Counted from the stretch's first letter, positions 1-11,942 are shown. The stretch is 11,942 nucleotides of DNA from a virus (IMGVR_UViG_2529292735_000009:1-11942), one strand, 5' to 3'. Numbers and translations are program-made. Notes: generated from the letters alone by a model not told the origin.

Positions 1-42
1 GTCTGTGCCCTGACTGAGCAATTGCATGGTGGTGTCGGTCAT
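1..42 (-). CDS. 5' end (14 codons, MTDTTMQLLSQGTD...) of a divergently transcribed gene of unknown function; rest lies outside the window
   Basis: ATG at 42-40 on minus strand preceded by GGGAGGG (revcomp of 49-55) at 5-nt spacing; reading frame open to window edge. Too short to identify. Confidence 0.25.
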   Translation of the reverse strand, partial: MTDTTMQLLSQGTD

Positions 43-199
43 CTGTTCCCTCCCTGTGCGGCATGGTCGCATGTGCGTGCGGAGGGGGTTACTGCTTTTT
101 GTTGTCGCCGTGGCGGGAGAACGGCGCAGGGGTGAGATTACGCGCGTGGTGGGTGATGATTGTTGCCGAATCATTTAACGGATACAAGGGGCTGAAGCT

Positions 200-1385
200 A
201 TGAGTGAAACTCGTTTTCATGGTGCCCGTGTTACGGAAAATACCGACCTGGTAACAGCGATTAACGATGTTGATTCCAGCGTTATCGGTATCGTGGCAAC
301 GGCGGATGATGCGGACGCGAAGCTGTTCCCGCTGAACAAGCCCACACTGCTGACCCGCGTCAATGACGTGCTGGGAAAATGCGGGACAACGGGGACGCTT
401 TATCGTGCGCTTAAGGCCATCGCAGACCAGGTGAGCACAAAAGGTGATCGTCGTTCGCGTGGCTGAACACAAAGAAGAAGACGGTAAGACGCAGGATCAA
501 CTGGTTATCGGTGGTTCTGAGGATGACGGCAGCTATACGGGGATGTATGCGCTGCTTGTTGCAGAGCAGGATGAAAGCATCGGATACCGTCCGCGTATTC
601 TGGCCGCGCCGGAGCTGGACACGGAGGCGGTGACAAAATCCCTGTGCGTGATTGCGGGTAAACTGCGCGCGTTTGTGTATGCCACATGTCATGGTTGTAA
701 CACGATGGCTGAGGCGATTACCTACCGCCAGAAATTCAACGAACGTGAGGTGATGCTCTTATGGCCTGACTTCATAGCCTACAACCCGAAAAGTGGCAAA
801 AACGAAACGTTCCCCGCGCCTGCTTATGCGTGCGGCCTTCGTGCGTACATTGACCATGAGCAGGGCTGGCACAAATCGCTGTCCAACGTTCCGGTTAAAA
901 ATGTGCTGGGAATGTCCAGGCATGTGTTCTGGTCGTTGCAGGCCGAAGACAGCGATGCCAACAGCCTCAACAACAAAGAAATCACGACCATTATTCGTCG
1001 CAACGGGTTCCGCTTCTGGGGCAACCGCACACCGGAAACGAACGCCTACATCTTTGAGGTGTATACCCGAACCGCACAGGTGCTGGCTGATTCAATTGCG
1101 GAAGCGCAGTTTGAAACCATCGACAGTCCACTGACGCCTGCGAACGTGAAGGATGTTATCAGTGCCATCAGGGCAAAACTGGATTCACTGGTGACTGCCG
1201 GGAAACTGATTGGTGCGGAGTGCTGGTATGACGTGGTGGATAACGGCACCACGAATTTACGTCAGGGACGTGTGCGTATTCGCTACAAATATACGCCCGT
1301 TCCGCCACTGGAAGACATGGAGCTTTACCAGACGTTTACTGATGAATACTTTGAACCCGCATTTGCGGTGCTGGGAGGTGCCTGA
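200..1385 (+). CDS. FI: Contractile tail sheath protein (P2 gpFI-like), reading frame interrupted by one frameshift near 438-444
   Basis: ORF 200..466 (88 aa) plus ORF 444..1385 (313 aa) in a different frame together read colinearly with remembered P2 FI (e.g. FPLNKP, KLRAFVYA, IIRRNGFRFWGNRT, YTPVPPLE). Combined span 1186 nt; removing one base at AAAAGG 438-444 restores a ~394 aa protein. RBS AAGGGG 8 nt before ATG 200. Confidence 0.9.
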
Positions 1386-1898
1386 TGGCTGTGCCAAAAC
1401 ATCTTCGCTTTTTTACGTCTGTTTGTGGATGGTGAAAACGAAGTGGGTAAGGTGACGTCCGTCTCTCTGCCTAAGCTGACGCGCAAAACCGACAGCTACC
1501 GGGGTGGTGGCATGATGGGTGCGGTAAGTATTGATCTCGGTCTGGACGACTCCGCGCTTGATGCGAGCTTTGCATGGGGGGGGGCTGTTCGTGAGCTGTT
1601 CCTTAAGTATGGCGGCACGATTGACGGCACGCTGCTGCGTTTTGCGGGTGAATACTACACCGATGCAGAAAGCGACCTGTATGAAGTCGAAATGCGCGGA
1701 CGTGTGACGGAAATTGATATGGGGGAAGCCAAACAGGGCGAAGCCACATCACACTCTTACGCCATTAAAAACACCTACTACAAGCTGAGCGTTAACGATC
1801 GCCCGTTGTGGGAGATTGACCTGCTGAACTTCATTTACCGGAAGGACGGCAAGGACATTGTGCCCGATCGCATCCGTTCCGCGCTTGGGCTTGGCTGA
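1385..1898 (+). CDS. FII: Tail tube protein (P2 gpFII-like), frameshifted at T6 homopolymer 1409-1414
   Basis: ATG 1385 overlaps the sheath stop (cTGATGg). Frame from 1385 reads MAVPKHLRFF then stops at 1433-1435; frame of ORF 1425..1898 continues ...LFVDGENEVGKVTSVSLPKLTRKTDSYRGGGMMG, matching P2 FII (MAMPRKLKLMNVFLNG...TLPKLTRK...YRGAGMNG). Shortening T6 to T5 gives a colinear ~170 aa protein. Confidence 0.88.
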
Positions 1899-1952
1899 TA
1901 AGTAATATGCAGGCGGCGCAGTGCGTCGCCTCTGACTGAAAGGAGTTTCCTG

Positions 1953-2318
1953 ATGAAAGAGACGAAAAACATCGATACCGAAAACACGGTAGTTGCTGAC
2001 ACTGTGAAAGAAACCAGTGAGCGTGGCGTAAAACTTACCCAACCAATTGAGCGAGGCGGCGAAAAAATCACGTATGTGGAGATCACCAGGGCTATTGAGC
2101 AGGCTGGATCTCTGCGAGATTTTGTCGCTGTCTGATGTGCTGAATCTGAAAGCGGAATCCATGTTTACGCTGCTGTCACGCGTGACATCACCGCGACTGG
2201 ATGAAGTGACGATCAAAAAATGGCATCCCGTGACTTTATTCAGTTATGTGTGGTTGCCGTAAATTTTTTGAGCGGTGCGGACTCTGGCGGGAAGAACGAA
2301 CAGGCGACGGAAGCCTGA
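1953..2318 (+). CDS. E: Tail assembly chaperone (P2 gpE-like, lambda G analogue); two compensating indels (T4 at 2120-2123 and A6 at 2215-2220)
   Basis: ATG 1953 follows RBS AAGGAG (1940-1945). Reading passes frame 3 (1953..~2120), frame 1 (LSLSDVLNLKAESMFTLLSRVTSPRLDEVTIKK), then frame 3 again (MASRDFIQLCVVAVNFLSGADSGGKNEQATEA, stop 2316-2318). Pattern matches gpE family as I remember it (...LRG.NLSDLL...LLPR.T.P.L...VVGFL). Confidence 0.75.
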
Positions 2319-2482
2319 TCACGGTTGTGTGCTTTGAGCACATAGAAGACTTTGTGGCAGATATTGCCGTTATTTTTAACTGGTCGCCCGCCGAAATCTT
2401 CATGATGACGCCCGGCGAAGTGGTTAGCTGGCGTGAGCGGGCGGCACTTCGCAGCGGGAGTGCAGACAATGAAGACTCTTGA
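1953..2482 (+). CDS. E': E+E' translational frameshift fusion product (tail assembly chaperone long form)
   Basis: E frame to 2270, then -1 frame 2270..2482 (ERCGLWREERTGDGSLITVVCFEHIEDFVADIAVIFNWSPAEIFMMTPGEVVSWRERAALRSGSADNEDS). The E' segment has no start codon of its own and overlaps the T start by 14 nt. Confidence 0.6.
2264..2270 (+). other. Programmed -1 ribosomal frameshift slippery heptamer T_TTT_TTG generating E+E'
   Basis: Heptamer is in X_XXY_YYZ register relative to the E frame (codons TTT 2265-2267, TTG 2268-2270). The -1 frame is open from here for ~70 codons and ends TGA 2480-2482, overlapping the tape-measure start. Same organisation as described for the P2 E/E' operon. Confidence 0.65.
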
Positions 2483-5277
2483 TATCCGGGTCGCTTTCAG
2501 CGCCGTTGACAGGCTGACCCGGCCTGCCGAAAACGCCCGCCGCCTGATGGGGCAGTTTGGTGACTCCATCCAGCGAACGCAGGGGGCGATCAAAAATCTC
2601 GAGCGTCAGGCGCGATCATTTGAGCGCGCCCGTGACGCTGTCAGTAAAGCGGATGCGGGCATCGTGAAAGCACGACGCCAGCTTAACGCCCTTAATCAGT
2701 TACAACGCACGGGTACAGTGCTCAGACGAAAAACAACAAAAGCTGATGCAGCAGTTAAGCACCCGGCTTGAACGCCTGAATGAATCGCGCACACGGGAAA
2801 TTCAGAAAATGCGGGAGCTTGGCGGAGAGCTGAAACGCCACGGCATTTCCCTGACAGGCAGCGATAACACCATCCAGCAGGCCATCAGACGCACCGAACA
2901 ATACAACAACCAGCTTGAACGCGAACGGCAGGCGCTTGCGCGTGTAACGCGGGCGCGTGAGCGGTATTCGCGCGCGCAGGAAACTGCGGGAAAACTGAAA
3001 ACAGGTGGTGCGCTGGCAATTGGTGCGGCAGCGGCTGGCGGCTATGCTGCCGGGCGTTTTTTGCAGCCTGCGATCGGGTTCGGGAAAGAGATGTCCCGCG
3101 TTCAGGCACTGACGCGAATCGACAAAAACAGCCCGCAGTTTAAGGCGCTGCGTGAGCAGGCATTAAAACTTGGCTCTGAAACACAGTTTACTGCGAGTGA
3201 TGCCGCCAGTGGGCAGAGCTTTCTGGCAATGGCTGGTTTTACTCCGCAGGCCATTCAGGCCGCATTGCCCGGTGTTCTTAATATGGCGCTGGCAGGTGGC
3301 GTCGAACTCGGCGAGACGGCTGATATAGGCTCCAATATCCTCACACAGTTCAACCTGACAGCCGATCAAATGGACCGGGTTGGCGATACGCTGACAGCAG
3401 CATTCACCCGGACCAATACTGATTTACGCGCGCTGGGCGAAACCATGAAGTATACCGGTCCGGTTGCCGCAAAACTTGGTATCAGTCTTGAAGAAGCGGC
3501 AGCCATGGCCGGGATGCTTGCCAATAATGGTCTTCGTGGAAGCGATGCTGGTACGGCCATGCGCGCAAGTCTGTCCCGCCTTGCATCACCGCCAAAAGCT
3601 GCGGCTGATGCGCTGAAAGAGCTGGGGGTGTCAGTTGCTGACGCCAGAGGCAAAATGCGCCCGATGGAGGATGTGCTGCTTGATCTCTATAAGGCGACAC
3701 AAAAATACGGACAGGTGGACCAGGTTTCCTTCTTCAAGGACATCGCCGGAGAAGAGGCGTTCGTTGGTTTGCAGACGCTTGTTGCGGCGGCTGGTTCAGG
3801 AGAGCTGCAAAAACTGACCAGAGAATTGCAGGGGGCAAGGGGAGAGGCCGATCGCGTCGCAAAAGTAATGGCCGATAATCTTGATGGGGACTTGAAAAAT
3901 CTCGACAGCGCATGGGAAGGTCTTCGTATTCGCATCAGTGATCTGGTTGACGGTCCGCTGCGTTCTGTCACGCAGTGGCTCACGCGGGTGCTTGAAAAAA
4001 TCACCTCGCTGGCGCAGGCCCATCCGGTGCTGACGCGCCAGCTACTGATAGCAGGCGGTGCGTTGCTGGCAATGACTGCAACGATTGGCTCGTTGTCGCT
4101 GGTTATTGGGGTGCTTTACGGGAAGTTGGCCACCCTGCGTCTTGGTTTTGACATTCTTACCCGGTCAATGAATGTCGTCAGGGTGTTGCCTGCGCTGTGG
4201 GGAATGGTGACGGGATCCGTTTCTTTACTGGGAGGCGCTATTGGGGCGCTGTTCAGTCCGGTTGGTCTTATCGTGGCTGCGCTTGCCGGAGCTGCCGTTC
4301 TTATCTGGAAATACTGGGATCCCATCAGGGCATTTTTTGCCGGGGTGTTCAGCGGGATTATGGAAAGGCTGACCCCGTTGCGCGAAACCTTTGAACGGTT
4401 TGGTCCTGTTTTTGACGCAATCGGAAGCGGGATAAGCCAGGTGTTTAACTGGTTTAAATCGCTGCTGTCACCGATGGAGTCCAGCAAGGAAACGCTGGAT
4501 AAATGTACCAGTGCTGGCGAGATATTCGGTAACGTTCTTGGCGGTGCGTTACAACTTGTTCTGACACCTGCAAAAATGTTGCTGGATACGCTGGCGTGGA
4601 TACTTGAAAAGCTCGGTGTGCTTCCGGATGAAGCGGAAAGGGCGCGCAAAAAAATCGAAGACGCACAGCGTGCGGCCATTCTTCAGGACAAGGTTGCCTT
4701 GCTTCAGGGGGACCTGGCGAAAATCAATCCGCCGAAGCCTGTGGAAAATGGCAATGGCACCGGAGGTGATAAACCCAAAGACAACAAACCGCTCACAGAC
4801 AGCAATACCGGTACGCTACGCAGACTCAGCAAAATTGCTGATAACACAGGTAAGCTGGTTGATGAGACGAAAAAACGCATTGGCCCCGGCGATATTGTCT
4901 TTAAGAACCTGCCCCGCGCACTTGCTGTTCGTGGGGAGTGGCAGGAGCGGAAGATTGCGCAGGTCAGTAAGCCTGCCCCCGCAATTAATATCACACCCGT
5001 GGTTCCGGCTCCGCTGCCTCCGGCGCTGGTCCCTGTTGTTGCGACCAGCTCCCGCCCGGTGGCGGAGGCCATACGATCGCCAGTGGCATCAGTTCCTGCA
5101 ACTTCCCGTAACCGGGAGCCTGTTGCCTCCGGATTTGGCGGTGAAATTCATGTTCATCTGCATAACGTTGTTACACAGAATCCCCGCGAACTGGCGAAAC
5201 TGGTCGGTGAAATGGTCAGGGCAGAAATGGAACGGCGCGCCCGTGCCAGGCGTGGCAGTTTTTACGATAAAGATTGA
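2469..5277 (+). CDS. T: Tail tape measure protein (P2 gpT-like), frameshifted once between 2668 and 2771
   Basis: ATG 2469 with RBS GGAG 8 nt upstream. N-terminal ~85 codons are in the frame of ORF 2433..2771, then the 843-aa ORF 2746..5277 continues in the +1 frame (open from 2668). Coiled-coil-like N-terminus, central tape-measure core (GSDAGTAMRASLSRLASPPKAA...), hydrophobic Gly/Ala-rich segments and Pro-rich C-terminus. Candidate homopolymers for the shift: A5 2729-2733, A4 2738-2741. Confidence 0.9.
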
Positions 5278-5289
5278 GGAGTCATGGCC

Positions 5290-5778
5290 ATGATGATGAT
5301 CTACGGCATGTTTGTTTTTGAGCTGCGCACGTTGCCGCATCAGCAGTTACAGCAAAACAAAAGCTGGCGACATGTGAAAAATGAACGCGTTAACCGTTCA
5401 GCAAGCTGGCAGTATATCGGTGCAGGTGATGATCGCATCGTTCTTTCTGGTGTTCTTTATCCTGAGATTACTGGTGGCGAAGTGTCGCTGTCGTTGTTGA
5501 CCACGCAGGCATATACAGGACGTCCTTGGCCTTTGATTGATGGCGTCGGGCAGATTTACGGCATGTATGTCCTGACCGGAACGAATACGACCCGCTCCGA
5601 GTTTGATCGCTACGGTAAGGCGAAAAAGATAGAATTTTCACTGACTCTTGAACGCTGTGATGAGGATTTGCGGGAGCGCCTGCAATCCTCATCGTTCAGC
5701 GATATGCTGTCCGGCTTCAAAGATAAGGTGACATCATCCCTTAATAGCGCGGCCAGCTCAGTTAAGGGGCTGCTCTGA
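5290..5778 (+). CDS. U: Tail protein U (P2 gpU-like)
   Basis: ORF 5284..5778; starts MAMMMIYGMFVFELRTLPHQQLQ..., like P2 gpU (MMMVLGLFVFML...). GAGGAG at 5276-5281 is only 2 nt from ATG 5284, so ATG 5290 or 5293 is the more likely start. Confidence 0.85.
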   Translation: MMMIYGMFVFELRTLPHQQLQQNKSWRHVKNERVNRSASWQYIGAGDDRIVLSGVLYPEITGGEVSLSLLTTQAYTGRPWPLIDGVGQIYGMYVLTGTNTTRSEFDRYGKAKKIEFSLTLERCDEDLRERLQSSSFSDMLSGFKDKVTSSLNSAASSVKGLL

Positions 5779-5854
5779 TTTAACGTATGTCGCCAATTTC
5801 CTGATGAAGGTGACTGGCGACTTGCTGTTGTATGTCCTTCTCAGAAAATTGTTT

Positions 5855-5883
5855 TTGAATAACAAATAACAGGATTTTATAAT
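5855..5883 (+). promoter_or_regulatory. Near-consensus sigma70 promoter: -35 TTGAAT (5855-5860), 17-bp spacer, -10 TATAAT (5878-5883)
   Basis: Read directly from sequence. Sits ~50 nt upstream of the acetyltransferase RBS, inside the AT-rich island. Confidence 0.5.
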
Positions 5884-5934
5884 CTCTTAACCTTATAACA
5901 TGTGTGGTCTGAAATAATAATTAAGGAGATTATC

Positions 5935-6507
5935 GTGCTATCTTACTTAATGGCAATTCACTTTGTTTTATTTGGAAACTCTACTAATTTAAAAGACTTC
6001 TGGAAACATGAAGTAATTCGGCGGAAACGTATGGATATCTGGAGGCTTTTAAGAGAGAAAAAGCAGCGTAACCGGAATTTCCTTTTCTGGTGGCGGTTGG
6101 CTAACGAAATGTATATTAATGGTAATAAATTACATAAGAAAGCAGCCAAAAAATTAAACAGTAAAATAATTAACAAGTTTGGTTGTGAAATAGGATTGGG
6201 CGCAAATATTGGAAAAGGGTTGACAATTCCCCATCATGCTGGAATTGTTGTTCATTTTGCTGTTGATGCGGGTGAAAATCTGGTATTACGACAGAATACT
6301 ACCATTGGACAGATAGATGGTGATATGCCTGGTTCAAGAGTAAAAATTGGTAGTAACGTTGATATCGGAGCTAATTGTTGCATCATTGGATTATCACGTA
6401 AAATTGGGGATAATGTAAAAATAGGTGCAATGTCTTTTATAAATAAAGATATACCATCAAACTGCACATATATAACTAAAAAGAGTGGTGTTGTATTGTA
6501 TAAATAG
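5935..6507 (+). CDS. Hexapeptide-repeat (left-handed beta-helix) acetyltransferase, serine-acetyltransferase/WcaB/LacA-like; probable prophage moron
   Basis: ORF 5902..6507. RBS AAGGAG 5923-5928, then GTG 5935 at 6-nt spacing (alternative starts GTG 5902, ATG 5950). Motifs typical of the CysE-like acyltransferase fold: FWWRLANEMYINGNKLHKKAAKKLNSKI, GCEIGLGANIGKGLTIPHHAGIVV, tandem [LIV]G hexapeptide repeats, C-terminal IGANCCIIG...IGAMSFINKDIPSN. G+C visibly far lower than the flanking tail genes. Confidence 0.8.
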   Translation: MLSYLMAIHFVLFGNSTNLKDFWKHEVIRRKRMDIWRLLREKKQRNRNFLFWWRLANEMYINGNKLHKKAAKKLNSKIINKFGCEIGLGANIGKGLTIPHHAGIVVHFAVDAGENLVLRQNTTIGQIDGDMPGSRVKIGSNVDIGANCCIIGLSRKIGDNVKIGAMSFINKDIPSNCTYITKKSGVVLYK

Positions 6508-6514
6508 AATACAT

Positions 6515-6555
6515 AAAGCCATCGATATTTCTGTCGATGGCTTTTTCTTTTTATT
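6515..6555. terminator. Intrinsic terminator between convergent genes: 11-bp perfect stem AAAGCCATCGA / TCGATGGCTTT, 8-nt loop, T-rich tail
   Basis: Stem 6515-6525 and 6534-6544, loop 6526-6533, then TTCTTTTTATT (6545-6555). On the minus strand the hairpin is followed by a weaker U-rich stretch, so it could also serve tfa. Confidence 0.6.
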
Positions 6556-7135
6556 GTGGGGCGACTGGCCACTCAACATCCGCTGCTACTGTTGTATCAA
6601 CACGATTCAACAATACCCGATATGTCTTCCATGCAGCCAGTAACGATGCCTCTTCCTCCGTCGCAATATCCAAATCTACGGCATCCTGAAGTGGCGCAAT
6701 ATGCTCACTGGCTACCTGCATCAGGCTGTTTTTTGTTTCTTCTGCCTCCCGTACCCGAAACAGTTTTTCTGCTTCTGCATCTTTCGCCCAGGATGTGCCG
6801 TTCCACTTCTGACACTCTCCATCCGGCGACAACCAGGTAACATTTTCCGGTAACGGACCGAGTTCAGAAATAAATAACGCGTCCCCTGATGCCACGTCAT
6901 AAACAGTTTTACCCCGATGATCTTCAACGAGATGCCACGATGCCTCATCACTGTTGAAAACAGCCACGAAGCCAGCCGGAATATCTGGCGGTGCAATATC
7001 GGTACTGTTTGCAGGCAGACCTGTATGAGGTGGAATGTATGCATCACCTTCCCCAATAAATTCATTAGTTCCGGCCAGCAGGTTATAAATTTTTATGGTC
7101 CGTGATTGTTCACTCATTCTGAAATCCATGTTCAC
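6551..7135 (-). CDS. tfa: Tail fibre assembly protein (Tfa, lambda/e14 TfaE-like chaperone)
   Basis: 194-aa ORF ([55 protein letters not shown]...), very close to E. coli prophage Tfa proteins as I remember them. GTG 7135 has no spacer after the GAGG RBS, so ATG 7129 is a likely true start. Confidence 0.88.
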
Positions 7136-7137
7136 CT

Positions 7138-7506
7138 CTACTTAATATCAGAGACAGAATATTGTTTATTGAGCGTATGGGTGGGAGTACCAATAACGAT
7201 GCTACTTCCGTGGCTATGTGCGCCAGAGGTGACATTACCTACGGGATTTTCTGGATTAATCCGGTGTATATGCGAACCAGGGCGAAAACGGTTATTAGCC
7301 TGATGTTGTATCAGTACATCATCAGCCTGATGTTCAGGGTTAATACAGACTTGCCCGGAACGTGAGCAACACGTCCGATAATCGCCGCATCCAATATATT
7401 TAGTATCCGCATAACGGCAAACAGAATTACCCGGACAGTATGCATATGTGCCAAATACTGCCGACTGGCGAGATTGTGCGTATTCCCAGTTAATTGATTC
7501 TGTTTT
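7138..7506 (-). other. 122-codon open frame without start codon, Cys/His-rich; probable C-terminal continuation of the macro-domain protein after a homopolymer indel, or relic of an older tail-fibre 3' end
   Basis: The frame opens exactly at the A6 run (plus-strand T6 7503-7508) where the macro domain ends, and stops at TAG 7140-7138, 2 nt before the tfa start. Translation: [60 protein letters not shown]...[33 protein letters not shown]. Confidence 0.4.
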
Positions 7507-8039
7507 TTATTAAAGTTATCCCATGCCTGCTTCATCTGTCGTGCAACACTTTCAAACGGCACCTGACCACATCCGGCCCCCATTGCAGGGAATACCACTG
7601 TTTTTATTTTCATGTCTGTCGTTGCGTTTTTATTGTGCTGAAAGATGGCAAGCAGAGCGGCCCAGGTTGCGTTATATACAGCGTCTGTTCCGTCAATTGT
7701 CAACGGAACACGCATTGTTGGCGCATGTACCAGCCAGGGGTGATGATTATGCCCCGTTTCAATGACAAATGCAGAACCTACAGGCTGTTCGCCGAGATAT
7801 TCACGAAGAATATGATTCTGAACGCGGGACTGTAACTGAGTACCGAAGAATGCGGTAATGGCGGCATCAACGCCACCATCCATCAGGCCGAAACTATTTG
7901 CCGCACTTACCATGCAGTCAAATTCTCTGATTGTTTCAAATGGCTTTCCGACAATATTCACACTATCTGCATTTGCAAATATCCGTTTAAATGCTTCAGC
8001 CATTTCTGTTACTGGTGCAGAAAGAATGAGCGTAATCAT
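7311..8039 (-). CDS. Macro-domain protein (ADP-ribose binding / ADP-ribosyl hydrolase fold), as read in the given frame; probably longer (see next feature)
   Basis: ATG 8039-8037 overlaps the H stop (ATGA). Macro signatures: [28 protein letters not shown] (compare VNAAN..L..GGGV..AI) and [26 protein letters not shown] (compare FPAIS.G.YG.P). G+C lower than the neighbouring tail genes. Confidence 0.75.
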
Positions 8040-10054
8040 GCAAGCCTCACAATATAGTTAAATGCGATGTTTTTTACGGTGTTTTCTGCGTTACCCGTAG
8101 CGTTAACGGTGATGGTATGCCCGTGTGAACCTATCGCAACGGAGTGTGTGTGTGCACCAATTCCTACCGTATGAGTGTGTGCGCCAATATTTACTGTGTG
8201 AGAGTGCCCCCCTGCGTTACTTGTTTTTCCAGTGCCAAGCCCTGAGTTATAACCAGCCGAAACACCATTACCAGCACCAGTGTTGCCAACAGGAATATTG
8301 TGTGAATGATCCCCGGCGCTATTCGTGGTTTTAGTGCCATGGTTAAATGAACTGGACGTCTTGGTACCGTAATCAAACGACGATGTGGTTTTCGTCCCCA
8401 AATCCGTACTGGATGCACTGGCGCTGTGGGTGTGCGATTTAATGCCGTCCTGTTCCTGAGACAATACTGCACGACCACTGGCGGGCTTGCCCTTAATCGT
8501 CCAGCTACGCATATCAGGGATCACGCCTGACGGATAAGCGGCTGCAAGTTTCGGGTATGCAGATTTGTCAAAAGTCTGCCCCTGCATCAGGGCATAACCA
8601 GACGGAACGGTATCTGATGGCCAAGGGATCGGTGCGCCAACCGGATAAAGTTCATGAGGCGAAATATACAGCGAATAAACAGAACCGTCCGTTAATCCTT
8701 CCGGCTTATTAGCAGAATATGCTGGTGAAGTATGAATCGTTACGCTGGCGTTACTGGTATAATCCCATTGAATATTTACACCAGTCGCATAATTTCCGAT
8801 TGCAACGTAAATATCGTAAGTATCACCAGATGTATTGACCCAGGCAAAATTTGTAAACCCTGCCGATGTGCGCTGCCATAAAGCACCAGTAATCCCCTTC
8901 GGATTACCATTACCTGCACGCAAAACAAGTTCAGATATACCTGCCTGTTGAGGTGAGCCGACGTTATATCCAGCCCCACCAATCAACGTAATTGAAACAA
9001 CAGAACTCGCCTGCGGCATGGTTACCGTTGCTAATTTGAACCAACCAGCACCACTGCTGAATGACATAGTTGTTGAGTTAAGCGTACCAATATCTTTCGG
9101 TGTCAGTGTTATATCCGCTGAAAGCGCCTTACCATTCACCTTACGGGCAGAAGGTACCCGACCATTCGCATTGTCATTAGCTGCTTTCACTGCTTTCGAT
9201 GTCGCAGCAAGCGTTTCAGATGTGCTGTTAGTCGCGCTGCTTAGCTGGACAATCCCTTTTTGTGCTGTCGTAGCGTCCTGAGCGGTATATTTCCCGTTAG
9301 CAAGGTCATATGCTGCCTTTACCGCCATTGGTGTTGCCGCCAGCGTTTCAGAATCGCTGTTGGTGGCGCTACTGAGCTGGACAAGGCCTTTTCGCGCTGT
9401 GGTGGCATCCTGCGCAGTATATTTCCCGTTAGCAAGATCATACGCGGCCTTTACTGCTTTCGGCGTTGCAGCCTGCGTTTCAGACACGCTGGTAGTGTCG
9501 CTACTGAGTTGAACAAAGCCTTTTTGCGGTCAGCGAGGCATCCGGGGTGACGTCGTGACTGTTCATGCTCTTTCAGTTTGTCATCCACGTAATCCACTGT
9601 GGCCATCACCATGGTGTTATCCACGGTAAGCGCCACGGTGGCAGTGCTGGATACGGTCAGAATGGTGCGAAATGTTTGTGCACGACCGGACCCTTCGGCA
9701 ACGGCTGGCTTGTAACTTTCGGCAGTATTGACCCACCGCGATTAAATCGCCGTGCTCATCAAATACACCAATTTCCCGGATCCAGAATCCGCCCGTTTCA
9801 GGAGGAATAACCAGCTCCGCAATAATGCGGTTCTGATGTGTTGCGTCCAGGATGACGCGATTAACAGTGTGTCGCCACACCTCATGCACCAGACGGGTCT
9901 GCTTACTGTCTGGTGTGGGCAACGTGCCGCCACCGTCGCCCACGGCCATATGAGTCAGGCGGACAGGCTTACCATCTGGCGCGGCTGCCTGAGCTAATTT
10001 TTTGGCACCCGTATCGGTGATAAGGGTTTTAAATTTTCGTGTTGTGGTACTCAT
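8036..10054 (-). CDS. H: Tail fibre protein (P2 gpH-like N-terminus, tandem fibre repeats, gp37/Stf-like HxH C-terminus); three frameshifts at 9732-9734, 9545-9548 and 9521-9525
   Basis: ORF 9617..10054 ([28 protein letters not shown]...MAVGDGGG...HEVWRH...[10 protein letters not shown]) matches the P2 H N-terminus; ORF 9451..9636 ([28 protein letters not shown]) and ORF 8036..9487 continue it. Fragments join colinearly if one base is removed from CCC 9732-9734, GGGG 9545-9548 and TTTTT 9521-9525. C-terminus carries [32 protein letters not shown] repeats. Confidence 0.9.
9150..9530 (-). repeat. In-frame tandem repeat, ~132 nt (44 aa) period, ~2.8 copies, inside the tail fibre gene
   Basis: Protein repeats KG[FLI][36 protein letters not shown] occur three times; the DNA repeat is visible on the plus strand (tatatttcccgttagcaag[g/a]tcata... 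twice). Boundaries approximate. Confidence 0.6.
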
Positions 10055-10056
10055 GC

Positions 10057-10587
10057 TTAATCGTCCGGATAAATGGTAATGACTTCACCGTCGTAAGTTG
10101 CTGCCGCCGCGAAAATATCCCCCGGGATCTCCTGAATGATATTCAGCCCTGTCATGTGGCGGCTGACCGGGCGGGCATCAGCAATCAACCGCTCCATTTC
10201 CAGATACATTTCCTCCGTCACGCCACTGTCCAGCGTGCCGACTTCAACGGTAAATGTTCCCGGTTCTCCGCCGAACTCCCACCACTCAGACACGCGAATG
10301 AGGTATCCCAGCGGCTCAATGGCCCTGCGCAGTGCGCTGATGGTCCCTTTGTGTCGGTGTATCAGCCATGCATCACTAATCACCTGTCGCTTTGTCTCTT
10401 CCGGCCAGTTGCGATCCCAGCGGTCAACGGAAAACGCCCAGGCGAGATAAGGCAGCAGGTGCACCGGGCAGGTGTCCGGCGACCACAGCGTGTTGAGGTC
10501 TACCGGAATGTCTGTAATGCGTGTTCCGACGGCTTCGGCACAACGCATGAAACTGCTGGCTGATGGTGGTAACAGTGAATTACTCAT
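10057..10587 (-). CDS. I: Baseplate protein gpI-like (tail protein I)
   Basis: ORF 10057..10620, but the likely start is ATG 10587, overlapping the J stop (ATGAGTAA), giving 176 aa (P2 gpI is about that size). Stop is 2 nt before the H start. Confidence 0.85.
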   Translation of the reverse strand: MSNSLLPPSASSFMRCAEAVGTRITDIPVDLNTLWSPDTCPVHLLPYLAWAFSVDRWDRNWPEETKRQVISDAWLIHRHKGTISALRRAIEPLGYLIRVSEWWEFGGEPGTFTVEVGTLDSGVTEEMYLEMERLIADARPVSRHMTGLNIIQEIPGDIFAAAATYDGEVITIYPDD

Positions 10588-11476
10588 TGCGCCCACCTTC
10601 GCTGATGGTGAATGACTCACAGCGCGCTGCCTGTATGTCGCTGATGGCCATATTCTGTGTGGGTTCGATTATCTCCACGCGTTGCACACCGTGCACATGC
10701 AGTGCGGCAGCAATGGCGGACAACGCCACGTCCTGACCGATAAGCCCCTGCTCAGCCAGCCACTTCCTGAACGACGATTCCGCCGCAGCCAGAATAGGTT
10801 CGGATTCCGGGCCGGGGTAAAAGTACAGTTTTGCATTCAGCCGCCATGTCACGATTCTGGCACTCTGTACGGTCAGGCGGTCGGCCACCGGGCGGGTATC
10901 CTCTGCATTCAGAACGGCGCGAACGGTATTAAGCAACGCCTCCGTTGCTGTGCCGTCGCCTTCAGTGGACAGGATGGAAACCGTCACATTTGCCGGAGAC
11001 GGACTGATAGCCCGCGCATCACGCACCAGACCGCTGGCGCTGCGGGCAAAATACTCGTATGCACCTGACGGGCCAGCAACACTCAGGCCGTCGTACGCCC
11101 GTTGCGCCCGCAGTCTCAGCGAGGTGTCGCTTTCCATCACCGCGTCGGTGGTATCCGTTGCCGGAGTGATAACCAGGCGCTTTGTGTTCATATTGCCCGC
11201 GAGGTTGTCCAGGTCTGTCCCGGCGCTGTGGCTTAACATGCAGGCGCGTGCACCCTCGTTAACCCGCTGGCGTAACAGCATTTCACGAAACGACATGGTT
11301 TGAGCGATAACGTTAAGGGGTTCCGATTCCAGCTCCAGCGCGGCGGAAACGGCTTCACGCTGTTCGGCGGGATAAGCCGCAATCATCATGGCCTTTGTGT
11401 CAGCCAGAATTGCCTCAAAGTCAGGCTCCGCGATGATGGCGGGGTCCGGTAACTGTGAAAGGTCAACGGCGGGCAT
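10580..11476 (-). CDS. J: Baseplate assembly protein gpJ-like (baseplate wedge)
   Basis: 298-aa ORF, similar in size to P2 gpJ as I recall it; starts 3 nt after the W stop, with RBS GAGGGA inside the W 3' end. The J identity rests on position and size within the V-W-J-I-H order rather than on motifs I can quote. Confidence 0.88.
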   Translation of the reverse strand: MPAVDLSQLPDPAIIAEPDFEAILADTKAMMIAAYPAEQREAVSAALELESEPLNVIAQTMSFREMLLRQRVNEGARACMLSHSAGTDLDNLAGNMNTKRLVITPATDTTDAVMESDTSLRLRAQRAYDGLSVAGPSGAYEYFARSASGLVRDARAISPSPANVTVSILSTEGDGTATEALLNTVRAVLNAEDTRPVADRLTVQSARIVTWRLNAKLYFYPGPESEPILAAAESSFRKWLAEQGLIGQDVALSAIAAALHVHGVQRVEIIEPTQNMAISDIQAARCESFTISEGGRNE

Positions 11477-11479
11477 GAT

Positions 11480-11830
11480 TTACTCCCTCAGCGTGATGGT
11501 TAATTCAACATTCTGCATGGTCTGCATGACAGTGCCCGACAGCGTCACCCCGGCGCGGCCTCCCGCTTTCCAGACAACGTCGATGGCATCCAGGGCAATG
11601 CGGGGTTCCCATCGTGTCAGCGCAATCACGGCAGCACTCATGCATTGCAGACGCGTGGTGTTATTCATGGGTTCGTCAATCAAATCAGGCACAAGGCTGC
11701 CATATTCCCGTCGCATAACCCGGCTTGCCAGCGGGGTGGTCAGGATATCCCTGACTGACTGTTTCAGGTGCTCCATATCGTTCAGGTTTCCCGTCCCGTC
11801 CGGATTCATTCCTGTGTAGCGGGTTGTCAC
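11480..11830 (-). CDS. W: Baseplate protein gpW-like (gp25/GPW family)
   Basis: 116-aa ORF MTTRYTGMNPDGTGNLNDMEHLKQSVRDILTTPLASRVMRREYGSLVPDLID..., matching P2 gpW (MTARYLGMNR...DLEHI.QSI.DIL.TP.GSRVMRRDYGSL) in sequence and length. GTG start overlaps the stop of the upstream gene (GTGA). Confidence 0.9.
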   Translation of the reverse strand: MTTRYTGMNPDGTGNLNDMEHLKQSVRDILTTPLASRVMRREYGSLVPDLIDEPMNNTTRLQCMSAAVIALTRWEPRIALDAIDVVWKAGGRAGVTLSGTVMQTMQNVELTITLRE

Positions 11831-11942
11831 TGCGGGCCTCCTGTCGAATCGCTGCCACCTTTCACGCCACCGTGTTTATGCGTATGCACGGTAATGCCGT
11901 TTGAGGTGAAATTGCCGCCGCTGTGCGTGATATTGCCGCTCA
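11827..11942 (-). CDS. V: 3' end of baseplate spike protein gpV-like gene (5' part outside window)
   Basis: Open frame from the window edge reading ...SGNITHSGGNFTSNGITVHTHKHGGVKGGSDSTGGPQ*, stop TGA overlapping the W start; position immediately upstream of W as in P2 (V-W-J-I-H). Gly/His-rich C-terminus is typical of gpV spikes. Confidence 0.65.
   Translation of the reverse strand, partial: SGNITHSGGNFTSNGITVHTHKHGGVKGGSDSTGGPQ

What the first reader, a model, noticed from the sequence alone, without database searches (positions are those of the whole stretch)
435..2771. Frame breaks in sheath, tube, chaperone E and tape measure, each at a homopolymer
Sheath shifts frame at AAAAGG 438-444, tube at T6 1409-1414, E at T4 2120-2123 and back again at A6 2215-2220, and T within 2668-2771 (A5 2729-2733 or A4 2738-2741). 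In every case the protein continues colinearly in the new frame with good similarity to P2 homologues, and there are no in-frame nonsense substitutions or deletions. E carries a +1/-1 pair 95 nt apart that restores the frame. This favours homopolymer-length miscalls over real pseudogenisation; if the indels are real, the element is a freshly inactivated cryptic prophage or tailocin.
Basis: seen in the sequence. Interest (0 to 1): 0.5.

Follow-up and report, generated by a model that had tools for sequence, protein, structure and literature searches.

The report
Sequencing-error frameshifts in prophage tail genes
The broken reading frames in these phage tail genes are almost certainly one-base sequencing errors in a poor-quality draft contig of E. 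coli DEC14C, because removing them restores proteins found letter for letter in many other E. coli genomes.

Summary
The window is the whole 11,942-bp contig AIHM01000003.1 of the draft assembly of E. coli DEC14C. It holds the tail and baseplate module of a P88-like (P2-family) prophage.

There are eight one-base indels in 435-2771, not five or six. Only four of them are run-length changes (A3->A4, G8->G9, T3->T4, A7->A6). Three more hit the tail fibre gene and one hits a macro-domain gene.

Reverting the indels gives sheath, tube, E and tape-measure proteins that are 100% identical, end to end, to proteins in 54-138 other contigs. Four independent assemblies of the same 11.9-kb haplotype differ from each other by 1-3 substitutions and no indels. 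This contig differs from them by 8 substitutions and 11 indels. The six truncated products looked up (sheath, tube, E, T and two tail-fibre fragments) occur in no other assembly.

The indels favour homopolymers, including three of the five longest runs. Two non-homopolymer insertions show the pyrosequencing carry-forward pattern.

Verdict: sequencing or consensus artefact (about 0.9), not pseudogenisation. The one biological frameshift here, the programmed E/E' slip site TTTTTTG at 2264-2270, is intact.

The parts
1..42 (-). First 14 codons of tail gene D (MTDTTMQLLSQGTD). The contig begins inside this gene.
   Evidence: Translation; position relative to the PF05954 Phage_GPD gene in L011.
200..1385 (+). 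Tail sheath gene (FI homologue), split into an 88-aa and a 313-aa ORF by one extra A in the run 439-442.
   Evidence: Pfam Gp18_domIII_N, Phage_sheath_1 and Phage_sheath_1C on the fragments. The corrected 394-aa protein equals P0115, found on 92 contigs.
439..442 (+). A4 run, A3 in 16 of the 17 relatives that cover it (L008 has an in-frame G->A substitution there instead): +1 frameshift in the sheath gene.
1385..1898 (+). Tail tube gene (FII homologue). Its first 11 codons are cut off from the remaining 157-aa ORF by an extra T at 1418.
   Evidence: Pfam Phage_tube, E = 1.8e-43. The corrected 170-aa protein equals P0130, found on 125 contigs.
1418..1418 (+). Extra T, 3 nt after the T6 run 1409-1414 (TTTTTTACG[T]CTG). 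Fits the carry-forward insertion pattern.
   Evidence: Pattern definition from PMC3764156.
1572..1586 (+). Error cluster at the longest homopolymer of the contig. A T is missing after 1572, the G run 1576-1584 is G9 (G8 in the nearest haplotype), and 1586 is T (A in the nearest haplotype). Net frame change is 0; Val-Met becomes Ala-Trp.
   Evidence: The tube protein keeping Ala-Trp is absent from the 15-billion-protein collection, while the reverted protein is present.
1953..2318 (+). Tail assembly chaperone gene E (121 aa when corrected), broken at 2120-2123 and 2215-2220.
   Evidence: The corrected protein equals P0131, found on 138 contigs.
2120..2123 (+). T4 run, where the close relatives have T3 (L006 and L007 read GTCT here and are also one base shorter): +1 frameshift in E. 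The shifted frame stops at 2133-2135.
2215..2220 (+). A6 run, A7 in relatives (A8 in strain A36, whose E gene is annotated 'frameshifted'): -1 frameshift in E.
2264..2270 (+). TTTTTTG, the conserved P2-type programmed -1 ribosomal slip site. It is intact and has the same length as in 16 of 17 relatives.
   Evidence: Sequence. The P2 slip site is described in PMC3091744. T7 occurs only in strain A36.
2271..2482 (+). E' extension, read in the -1 frame after the slip site. It overlaps the start of T.
   Evidence: ORF 2246-2482 carries Pfam Phage_P2_GpE, E = 1.9e-12.
2469..5277 (+). Tape measure gene T (935 aa when corrected), split into a 100-aa and an 843-aa product by an extra A at 2726.
   Evidence: Pfam PhageMin_Tail. 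The corrected protein equals P0146, found on 54 contigs.
2726..2726 (+). Extra A (CAG[A]CGAAAAAC). On the - strand it is an extra T, 2 nt after a T5 run (TTTTTCG[T]CTG). Fits the carry-forward insertion pattern.
   Evidence: (absent from all 17 relatives that cover it).
5284..5778 (+). Tail gene U, intact.
   Evidence: Pfam Phage_P2_GpU. The exact protein is on 148 contigs.
7138..8039 (-). Macro-domain gene. It is 300 aa in the nearest haplotype and 242 aa here, because the T run 7503-7508 is T6 instead of T7.
   Evidence: The 242-aa form also occurs in diverged alleles in other assemblies, so this indel may be natural.
8036..10054 (-). Tail fibre gene H (671 aa when corrected), split by three one-base insertions at 9521-9525 (T4->T5), 9544-9547 (G3->G4) and 9731 (+A).
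10057..11942 (-). Baseplate genes I, J and W, intact, and the 3' end of V. The contig ends inside V.

Best explanation
The frame breaks are base-calling or consensus errors in a low-quality draft contig. The contig is AIHM01000003.1 of E. coli DEC14C, deposited with the 2012 DEC-collection drafts. They are not mutations in the bacterium.

The real sequence is an intact tail module of a P88-like (Xuanwuvirus, P2-family) prophage. Its gene order is sheath, tube, E with the E' extension, tape measure and U.

The error profile is that of flow-based (pyrosequencing-type) chemistry read at low local coverage. It consists of over- and under-calls of homopolymer length, plus 'carry-forward' insertions of a T in the next T flow after a T5 or T6 run.

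Shown here: the indels are unique to this contig, reverting them restores known proteins exactly, and their positions follow homopolymer and carry-forward patterns. Inferred: the sequencing platform and the low coverage, since no reads or record metadata could be consulted.
For: (1) Source. The whole window is the contig AIHM01000003.1 of GCA_000250455.2.

(2) Reversion. Deleting or adding the single bases gives uninterrupted ORFs. The products are exactly identical to proteins in many independent NCBI, Logan and ENA assemblies: sheath on 92 contigs, tube on 125, E on 138, T on 54 and the macro-domain protein on 85. No private amino-acid change remains in about 1,620 codons of the four genes.

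(3) Uniqueness. The six truncated products looked up (88, 157, 60, 843, 483 and 145 aa) each occur only on this contig among about 15 billion proteins.

(4) Indel excess. Four independent assemblies of the same 11,937-bp haplotype differ from each other by 1-3 substitutions and 0 indels. The window differs from them by 8 substitutions and 11 one-base indels. Only 2 of the 8 substitutions are private among 18 loci.

(5) Position bias. Seven of 11 indels lie in runs of 3 or more bases (p = 5e-4), and 3 of the 5 runs of 7 or more bases are altered.

(6) Carry-forward. Two of the 3 non-homopolymer insertions are a T placed 2-3 nt after a T5 or T6 run, on the + strand for 1418 and on the - strand for 2726. 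The probability of this by chance is 1.7e-4. It is the carry-forward signature described in PMC3764156.

(7) Substitution pattern. Against the first panel of 10 relatives, 10 of 14 coding substitutions that looked private were synonymous, so there is no sign of relaxed selection.

(8) Recurrence. The same runs are miscalled or vary in other assemblies: G7 in metagenome contig L015, which splits its tube gene, and A8 in strain A36, whose E gene is flagged 'frameshifted'.
Against: No raw reads, quality values, coverage or platform metadata could be inspected. The paper describing the DEC drafts is not in the library.

Two events, the T lost after 1572 and the A gained at 9731, fit neither the simple homopolymer pattern nor the carry-forward pattern.

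About one error per kb is high even for a 454 draft, and the errors cluster (7 in 442-2726, 3 in 9521-9731, none in 2727-7500). That requires an unverified assumption of locally very low coverage or a disturbed consensus.

The T6 allele at 7503-7508 occurs in other assemblies and may be genuine.

Real replication slippage is also biased towards homopolymers.
Confidence: 0.9

Rival explanations
1. The artefact arose at the assembly stage rather than at base calling. DEC14C would carry a second, related P2-like prophage. Reads from the two copies were merged, and a mis-gapped consensus placed both alleles of a SNP side by side, producing one-base insertions. This is still an artefact and may act together with flow errors.
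For: At 1418, relatives have either ACGCTG or ACGTTG, and the window has ACGTCTG. At 9731, relatives have G or A at the flanking site, and the window has GA. At 442 and 9525 the inserted base equals an alternative allele of the neighbouring site in L008 or L009.

Two of 3 non-homopolymer insertions match a flanking-site allele (chance p = 0.026).

The contig is short and ends inside conserved genes D and V. Alleles of other P88-like haplotypes appear only near its two ends, at 122, 131, 11857 and 11911. Many E. coli genomes hold 2-4 copies of this region.
Against: The insertion at 2726 has no matching polymorphism in 17 relatives. Deletions and the G8->G9, A7->A6 and T3->T4 changes are not explained by this mechanism. 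Apart from the indels, the interior of the contig follows a single known haplotype with only 2 private substitutions, not a mosaic of two copies. The statistical support is much weaker than for carry-forward (0.026 against 1.7e-4).
Confidence: 0.2
2. The indels are real. The prophage, or a tailocin derived from it, was inactivated very recently in the DEC14C lineage by a burst of one-base frameshift mutations.
For: The sequence as deposited has them. Slippage at homopolymers is a real mutational process. The T7/T6 variation in the macro-domain gene is seen in independent assemblies, including a Logan assembly of raw reads.
Against: There are 8 frameshifts in four genes, 11 over the contig, with no private amino-acid substitutions, no nonsense codons, no deletions and no IS elements. 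From general knowledge of E. coli mutation-accumulation studies, spontaneous substitutions outnumber indels by about tenfold.

None of the six truncated products looked up is seen in any other assembly. Sister haplotypes have no indels.

Insertions 2-3 nt after a T run have a chemical explanation, not a biological one.

Relatives carrying this haplotype include the P2-type L and X genes (L011-L015, L018), and the more distant relatives L004 and L005 also show capsid, scaffold and small-terminase genes, so the element is a phage and not a tailocin.
Confidence: 0.05
3. The frame changes are decoded biologically. Programmed ribosomal frameshifting or transcriptional slippage at the runs would yield full-length proteins despite the indels.
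For: One such site does exist in this operon: the E/E' TTTTTTG slip site at 2264-2270.
Against: Every relative encodes these proteins in a single frame at the other sites. Three of the sites are not slippery sequences at all. A stop at 2133-2135 follows the E shift within 4 codons. No conservation supports recoding at these sites.
Confidence: 0.01

Closest known systems
Escherichia phage P88 and other Xuanwuvirus prophages (Peduoviridae, P2 family): tail operon FI-FII-E/E'-T-U
   Same: Gene order and orientation are the same. Nucleotide identity is 98.4% over 150-3000 and 94.8% over 1-5784. The Pfam domains match, and so does the TTTTTTG E/E' slip site. The haplotype itself is present intact in at least four other assemblies at 99.8% identity.
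   Different: The only differences are the 11 one-base indels and 8 substitutions. The region between U and H carries a hexapeptide acetyltransferase and a macro-domain gene, where P88 has an invertase and alternative fibre cassette.
Flow-chemistry (454 pyrosequencing or Ion Torrent) error profile: homopolymer over- and under-calls and carry-forward insertions
   Same: The difference profile is dominated by indels. The indels are enriched in runs, and the longest runs are preferentially hit. Single-base insertions of the same base occur a few nt after a run, not adjacent to it (PMC3764156).
   Different: The platform of this assembly was not verified. Two events (the T lost after 1572 and the A gained at 9731) are atypical. 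The error density of about 1 per kb implies near single-read coverage.
Decaying or cryptic P2-like prophages, for example CP-933T of E. coli O157:H7
   Same: It is the same phage family, and the U protein is identical. In O157:H7 the tape measure gene really is disrupted.
   Different: In O157:H7 the damage is IS insertion and truncation that is shared by many independent genomes. Here the lesions are private one-base indels with no accompanying substitutions.

Membership tests
P2-family (P88-like) contractile tail gene module | Colinear genes for sheath, tube, E, E', tape measure and U, with the family's domains | tested here: met
   Pfam hits on the fragments: Phage_sheath_1 and 1C, Phage_tube, Phage_P2_GpE, PhageMin_Tail and Phage_P2_GpU. 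The order is the same as in P88 and in 17 relatives.
P2-family (P88-like) contractile tail gene module | Programmed -1 frameshift site TTTTTTG near the end of E, with E' open in the -1 frame | tested here: met
   TTTTTTG lies at 2264-2270 and the -1 frame is open to 2482 with a GpE domain. The site definition comes from PMC3091744. Frameshifting itself was not assayed.
P2-family (P88-like) contractile tail gene module | High nucleotide identity to a characterised member | tested here: met
   98.4% to phage P88 over 2,851 nt. 99.8% over the whole contig to intact prophages in four assemblies.
Pseudogenised (cryptic) prophage | Inactivating lesions that are inherited, that is, shared by independent related genomes | tested here: not met
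   The six truncated products looked up occur on this contig only. Eight loci that carry the corrected tape-measure protein have none of the indels, four of them colinear over the whole contig.
Pseudogenised (cryptic) prophage | Signs of relaxed selection: nonsense codons, deletions, IS insertions, excess nonsynonymous change | tested here: not met
   The corrected ORFs are fully open. The corrected sheath, tube, E and T proteins are identical to proteins found elsewhere. Only 2 private substitutions remain in 11.9 kb.
R-type tailocin | Tail module without capsid, packaging and replication genes | tested here: inconclusive
   The contig ends inside D and V, so DEC14C itself cannot be judged. 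Six of the eight relatives carrying the corrected tape-measure protein continue into the lysis genes and the head-completion genes X and L. The more distant relatives L004 and L005 continue into the capsid, scaffold and small-terminase genes. This argues for a complete phage.
Flow-chemistry sequencing error | Differences from the true sequence are mostly one-base indels, enriched in homopolymers | tested here: met
   11 indels against 8 substitutions relative to the nearest haplotypes, which show no indels among themselves. Seven of 11 indels lie in runs of 3 or more bases, p = 5e-4.
Flow-chemistry sequencing error | Carry-forward: insertion of the same base shortly after, but not adjacent to, a homopolymer | tested here: met
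   1418 (T6-ACG-[T]) and 2726 on the - strand (T5-CG-[T]). Chance p = 1.7e-4. Definition in PMC3764156.
Flow-chemistry sequencing error | The assembly was made from 454 or Ion Torrent reads, with low coverage at the sites | not testable with these tools
The DEC draft-genome paper (PMC3370608) is not held.

The most novel reading that the evidence does not exclude
The indels are genuine. In that case a functional P88-like prophage in DEC14C acquired about ten one-base frameshifts in its tail genes, with essentially no accompanying substitutions. That would imply a localised, indel-specific mutational process or an episode of extreme slippage, and a freshly dead prophage.
Probability: 0.04. Interest if true: 0.45.

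Novelty: not a real feature. Interest (0 to 1): 0.08.

Why it matters
The biological value is low and the value for data quality is practical.

The contig's annotated proteins EHX96965, EHX96967, EHX96968, EHX96972, EHX96977 and EHX96978, and probably the other small products called at the break points, are truncation artefacts. They sit in public protein databases as singletons (the 843-aa tape-measure fragment is even the sole member and representative of its 90% cluster). Prophage-intactness or pseudogene counts for DEC14C would be inflated.

The case also gives a read-free test for separating sequencing frameshifts from real ones. Revert the indels, then look the corrected proteins up by exact sequence, and compare the indel-to-substitution ratio with that among nearest-neighbour haplotypes.

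Tried and rejected
(1) Platform from the literature. I looked for the sequencing platform of the DEC drafts. The Hazen et al. 2012 paper (PMC3370608) is not held, and no held paper mentions DEC14C. The pyrosequencing attribution therefore rests on the error signature only.

(2) A natural Ala-Trp allele in the tube protein. I considered that Ala-Trp at 1572-1584 might be natural, because from memory P2 FII has a Trp near that position. This was rejected: all 12 close tube proteins that cover the site have Val-Met, the exact Ala-Trp protein is absent from the collection, and the reverted one is on 125 contigs.

(3) Private substitutions as a sign of decay. With a 10-genome panel there appeared to be 15 private substitutions, including odd A->T changes in the tube gene. 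With the right haplotype in the panel these fall to 2. The tube T27S and T124S changes are natural alleles.

(4) Collapsed-repeat consensus as the sole cause. This is kept only as a minor rival or contributing cause.

(5) Project-wide poor quality. The sister project assembly DEC3F carries the homologous module with all tail genes intact on a 188-kb contig. The problem is therefore specific to this contig, not to the whole project.

(6) Exact look-up of the corrected tail fibre protein H (671 aa) found nothing. L014, L016, L017 and L018 encode a 671-aa H that differs at only a few positions (9492 and 10004 in all four).


Full report
WHAT THE WINDOW IS

Exact protein look-ups show that the window is one complete record. 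It is the 11,942-bp contig AIHM01000003.1 of assembly GCA_000250455.2, Escherichia coli DEC14C. Its annotated products EHX96965 to EHX96978 are the ORF fragments seen here.

BLAST against phage and E. coli collections identifies the content as the tail and baseplate module of a P88-like prophage (Xuanwuvirus, Peduoviridae, the P2 family). Identity to phage P88 is 98.4% over 150-3000, and matches occur in 1,425 of 5,426 complete E. coli genomes.

The layout is as follows:
- 1-42 (- strand): 5' end of gene D
- 200-1385: sheath
- 1385-1898: tube
- 1953-2318: E
- up to 2482, -1 frame: E' extension
- 2469-5277: tape measure T
- 5284-5778: U
- 5902-6507: a hexapeptide acetyltransferase
- - strand, in order: a tail fibre assembly gene, a macro-domain gene, tail fibre H, baseplate I, J, W and the end of V

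These assignments rest.

CHECKING THE OBSERVATION

I aligned the window to 18 related loci. This located every length difference.

Inside 435-2771 there are eight one-base indels:
- +A in the run 439-442 (A3->A4)
- +T at 1418 (ACG[T]CTG)
- -T after 1572 (TTTG[T]CAT)
- +G in the run 1576-1584 (G8 in the nearest haplotype, G9 here)
- +T in 2120-2123 (T3->T4)
- -A in 2215-2220 (A7->A6)
- +A at 2726 (CAG[A]CG)

The T6 at 1409-1414 and the A5 and A4 at 2729-2741 have the same length in all relatives. The extra bases lie 3 nt downstream of the T6 and 2 nt upstream of the A5.

That pair only changes Val-Met to Ala-Trp.

The +1/-1 pair in E does not rescue the gene, because the shifted frame stops at 2133-2135.

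Outside the stated range there are four more indels: T7->T6 at 7503-7508 in the macro-domain gene, and T4->T5 at 9521-9525, G3->G4 at 9544-9547 and +A at 9731 in tail fibre gene H.

Reverting the indels gives uninterrupted ORFs with no nonsense codons.

REAL MUTATIONS OR ERRORS?

Three results bear on this.

First, the corrected proteins are exactly identical, end to end, to proteins present in many independent assemblies from NCBI, Logan and ENA:
- sheath (394 aa): 92 contigs
- tube (170 aa, with the 1572/1584 pair also reverted): 125 contigs
- E (121 aa): 138 contigs
- T (935 aa): 54 contigs
- macro-domain protein (300 aa): 85 contigs

The accession numbers are adjacent, which indicates the same prophage. 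After correction no private amino-acid change remains in about 1,620 codons.

By contrast, the truncated products (88, 157, 60, 843, 483 and 145 aa) each exist on this contig alone among about 15 billion proteins. The tube protein that keeps Ala-Trp does not exist anywhere.

Second, I fetched loci encoding the corrected T protein. Four independent assemblies carry the same haplotype colinearly over the whole contig: three isolates and one metagenome contig (L014, L016, L017, L018). Over 11,937 bp they differ from one another by 1-3 substitutions and 0 indels.

The window differs from them by 8 substitutions and 11 one-base indels. Of the 8 substitutions, only two are private among 18 loci: 776, which is synonymous, and 9492. 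The others are alleles known from other P88-like phages, and four of them lie within 131 nt of the contig ends.

A ratio of 11 private indels to 2 private substitutions is the reverse of what spontaneous mutation gives. From general knowledge of E. coli mutation-accumulation experiments, substitutions outnumber indels by about ten to one. A gene already dead should also collect nonsynonymous and nonsense changes.

Third, the positions follow a chemical pattern rather than a biological one. Seven of 11 indels lie in runs of 3 or more bases, which make up 16% of the sequence (p = 5e-4). Three of the only five runs of 7 or more bases are altered (G8, A7, T7).

Two of the three non-homopolymer insertions share one context. 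At 1418 it is TTTTTT-ACG-[T]-CTG on the + strand. At 2726 it is TTTTT-CG-[T]-CTG on the - strand. Each is an extra T placed 2-3 nt after a T5 or T6 run. By simulation on this sequence, two of three random insertions would do this with p = 1.7e-4.

This is the 'carry-forward' error of pyrosequencing: a single-base insertion of the same base type near, but not adjacent to, a preceding homopolymer (PMC3764156). With the 454 flow order T-A-C-G, which I give from my own knowledge, the extra T falls in the first T flow after the homopolymer flow in both cases.

The same runs misbehave in other assemblies. Metagenome contig L015 has G7 at the G8 run and a split tube gene. The 'complete' genome of strain A36 has A8 at the A7 run and T7 at the slip site, with PGAP 'frameshifted' flags on E and T.

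BEST EXPLANATION AND LIMITS

I conclude, with about 0.9 confidence, that the frame breaks are sequencing or consensus artefacts in a locally low-coverage draft contig.

The pyrosequencing attribution is an inference from the error signature. I could not read the GenBank comment, the reads or the DEC genome paper.

Several things remain imperfectly explained. The T lost after 1572 and the A gained at 9731 fit neither pattern. The density is high, at about 1 per kb. The errors cluster: 7 in 442-2726, 3 in 9521-9731, and none in 2727-7500.

A contributing mechanism may be consensus calling over reads from a second related prophage. At 1418 and 9731 the inserted base equals the alternative allele of a flanking polymorphic site in more distant relatives (chance p = 0.026). 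The contig is also short and ends inside conserved genes, with foreign alleles at both ends. That would still be an artefact.

A sister assembly from the same project, DEC3F, has all of these tail genes intact on a 188-kb contig. The defect is therefore specific to this contig.

WHAT IS BIOLOGICALLY REAL HERE

The one true frameshift of this operon is intact. The P2-type programmed -1 slip site TTTTTTG lies at 2264-2270. The E' extension is open in the -1 frame to 2482 and carries the Phage_P2_GpE domain. The P2 site is described in PMC3091744.

The T7/T6 tract in the macro-domain gene may be a natural polymorphism. The 242-aa form, with the same alternative C-terminal tail, is found in diverged alleles in Logan, ENA and NCBI assemblies. 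One of these is DEC3F, and a Logan assembly of run SRR094154 gives a protein identical to the DEC3F form.

COMPARISON WITH KNOWN SYSTEMS, AND NOVELTY

The element is a known P88-like prophage haplotype, already present intact in public genomes.

It fails the tests for a pseudogenised prophage. The lesions are not shared with other genomes, there is no relaxed-selection signature, and there are no IS elements or deletions. In CP-933T of O157:H7, by contrast, the T gene really is interrupted by IS elements in many genomes.

The tailocin idea is not supported. Most loci that carry the same tail proteins continue into lysis and head-completion genes, and more distant relatives continue into capsid and terminase genes.

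The finding is therefore not a real biological feature. Its interest is low. Its main use is as a flag that proteins EHX96965-EHX96978 include truncation artefacts.

Noticed in passing
window 2264-2482: The genuine programmed -1 frameshift of the operon, TTTTTTG with the E' extension carrying Pfam Phage_P2_GpE, is intact. The annotation of the source contig calls only a 42-aa stand-alone ORF for E'.
   Followed up: yes
window 7503-7508 (macro-domain gene, - strand, 7138-8039): A T7/T6 (A7/A6 on the coding strand) tract switches the macro-domain protein between a 300-aa and a 242-aa form. The macro domain itself is kept in both. The 242-aa form recurs in diverged alleles in Logan, ENA and NCBI assemblies. 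It could be a natural slippage polymorphism of a moron gene sitting between the tail fibre gene and its assembly gene.
   Followed up: partly
L015:8919-9430 (ENA ERZ24773434, NODE_773, cov 8.5): An unrelated metagenome assembly of the same haplotype has G7 instead of G8 at the run equivalent to window 1576-1584. Its tube gene is split into 106-aa and 68-aa products. The longest homopolymer of the module is therefore a recurrent trouble spot.
   Followed up: partly
L003 (NZ_CP028739.1, E. coli A36), equivalents of window 2220, 2269, 3084: A 'complete' RefSeq genome carries A8 at the A7 run, T7 at the TTTTTTG slip site and an extra G in the T gene. PGAP flags 'frameshifted' on E, T and the adjacent recombinase. 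These look like homopolymer errors of another platform.
   Followed up: no
window 9129-9543 (tail fibre gene H): Gene H has diverged tandem repeats offset by 132 bp (Pfam Phage_fiber_2 repeats). Relatives of the same haplotype differ by exactly one 132-bp unit (H of 671 against 715 aa). This is natural repeat-number variation in the fibre shaft.
   Followed up: partly
window 1-131 and 11857-11942: The contig starts 42 nt inside gene D and ends inside gene V. The only non-private substitutions relative to the nearest haplotype that lie outside H and the tube error cluster are near these ends (122, 131, 11857, 11911), and they match other P88-like haplotypes. This suggests a second related prophage in the genome, or a recombination junction, that broke the assembly.
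   Followed up: partly
window 5902-6507: A hexapeptide-repeat serine acetyltransferase-like gene lies between U and the tail fibre assembly gene, where phage P88 has a DNA invertase and an invertible fibre cassette. It is a cargo (moron) region, shared with CP-933T-like prophages of O157:H7.
   Followed up: no
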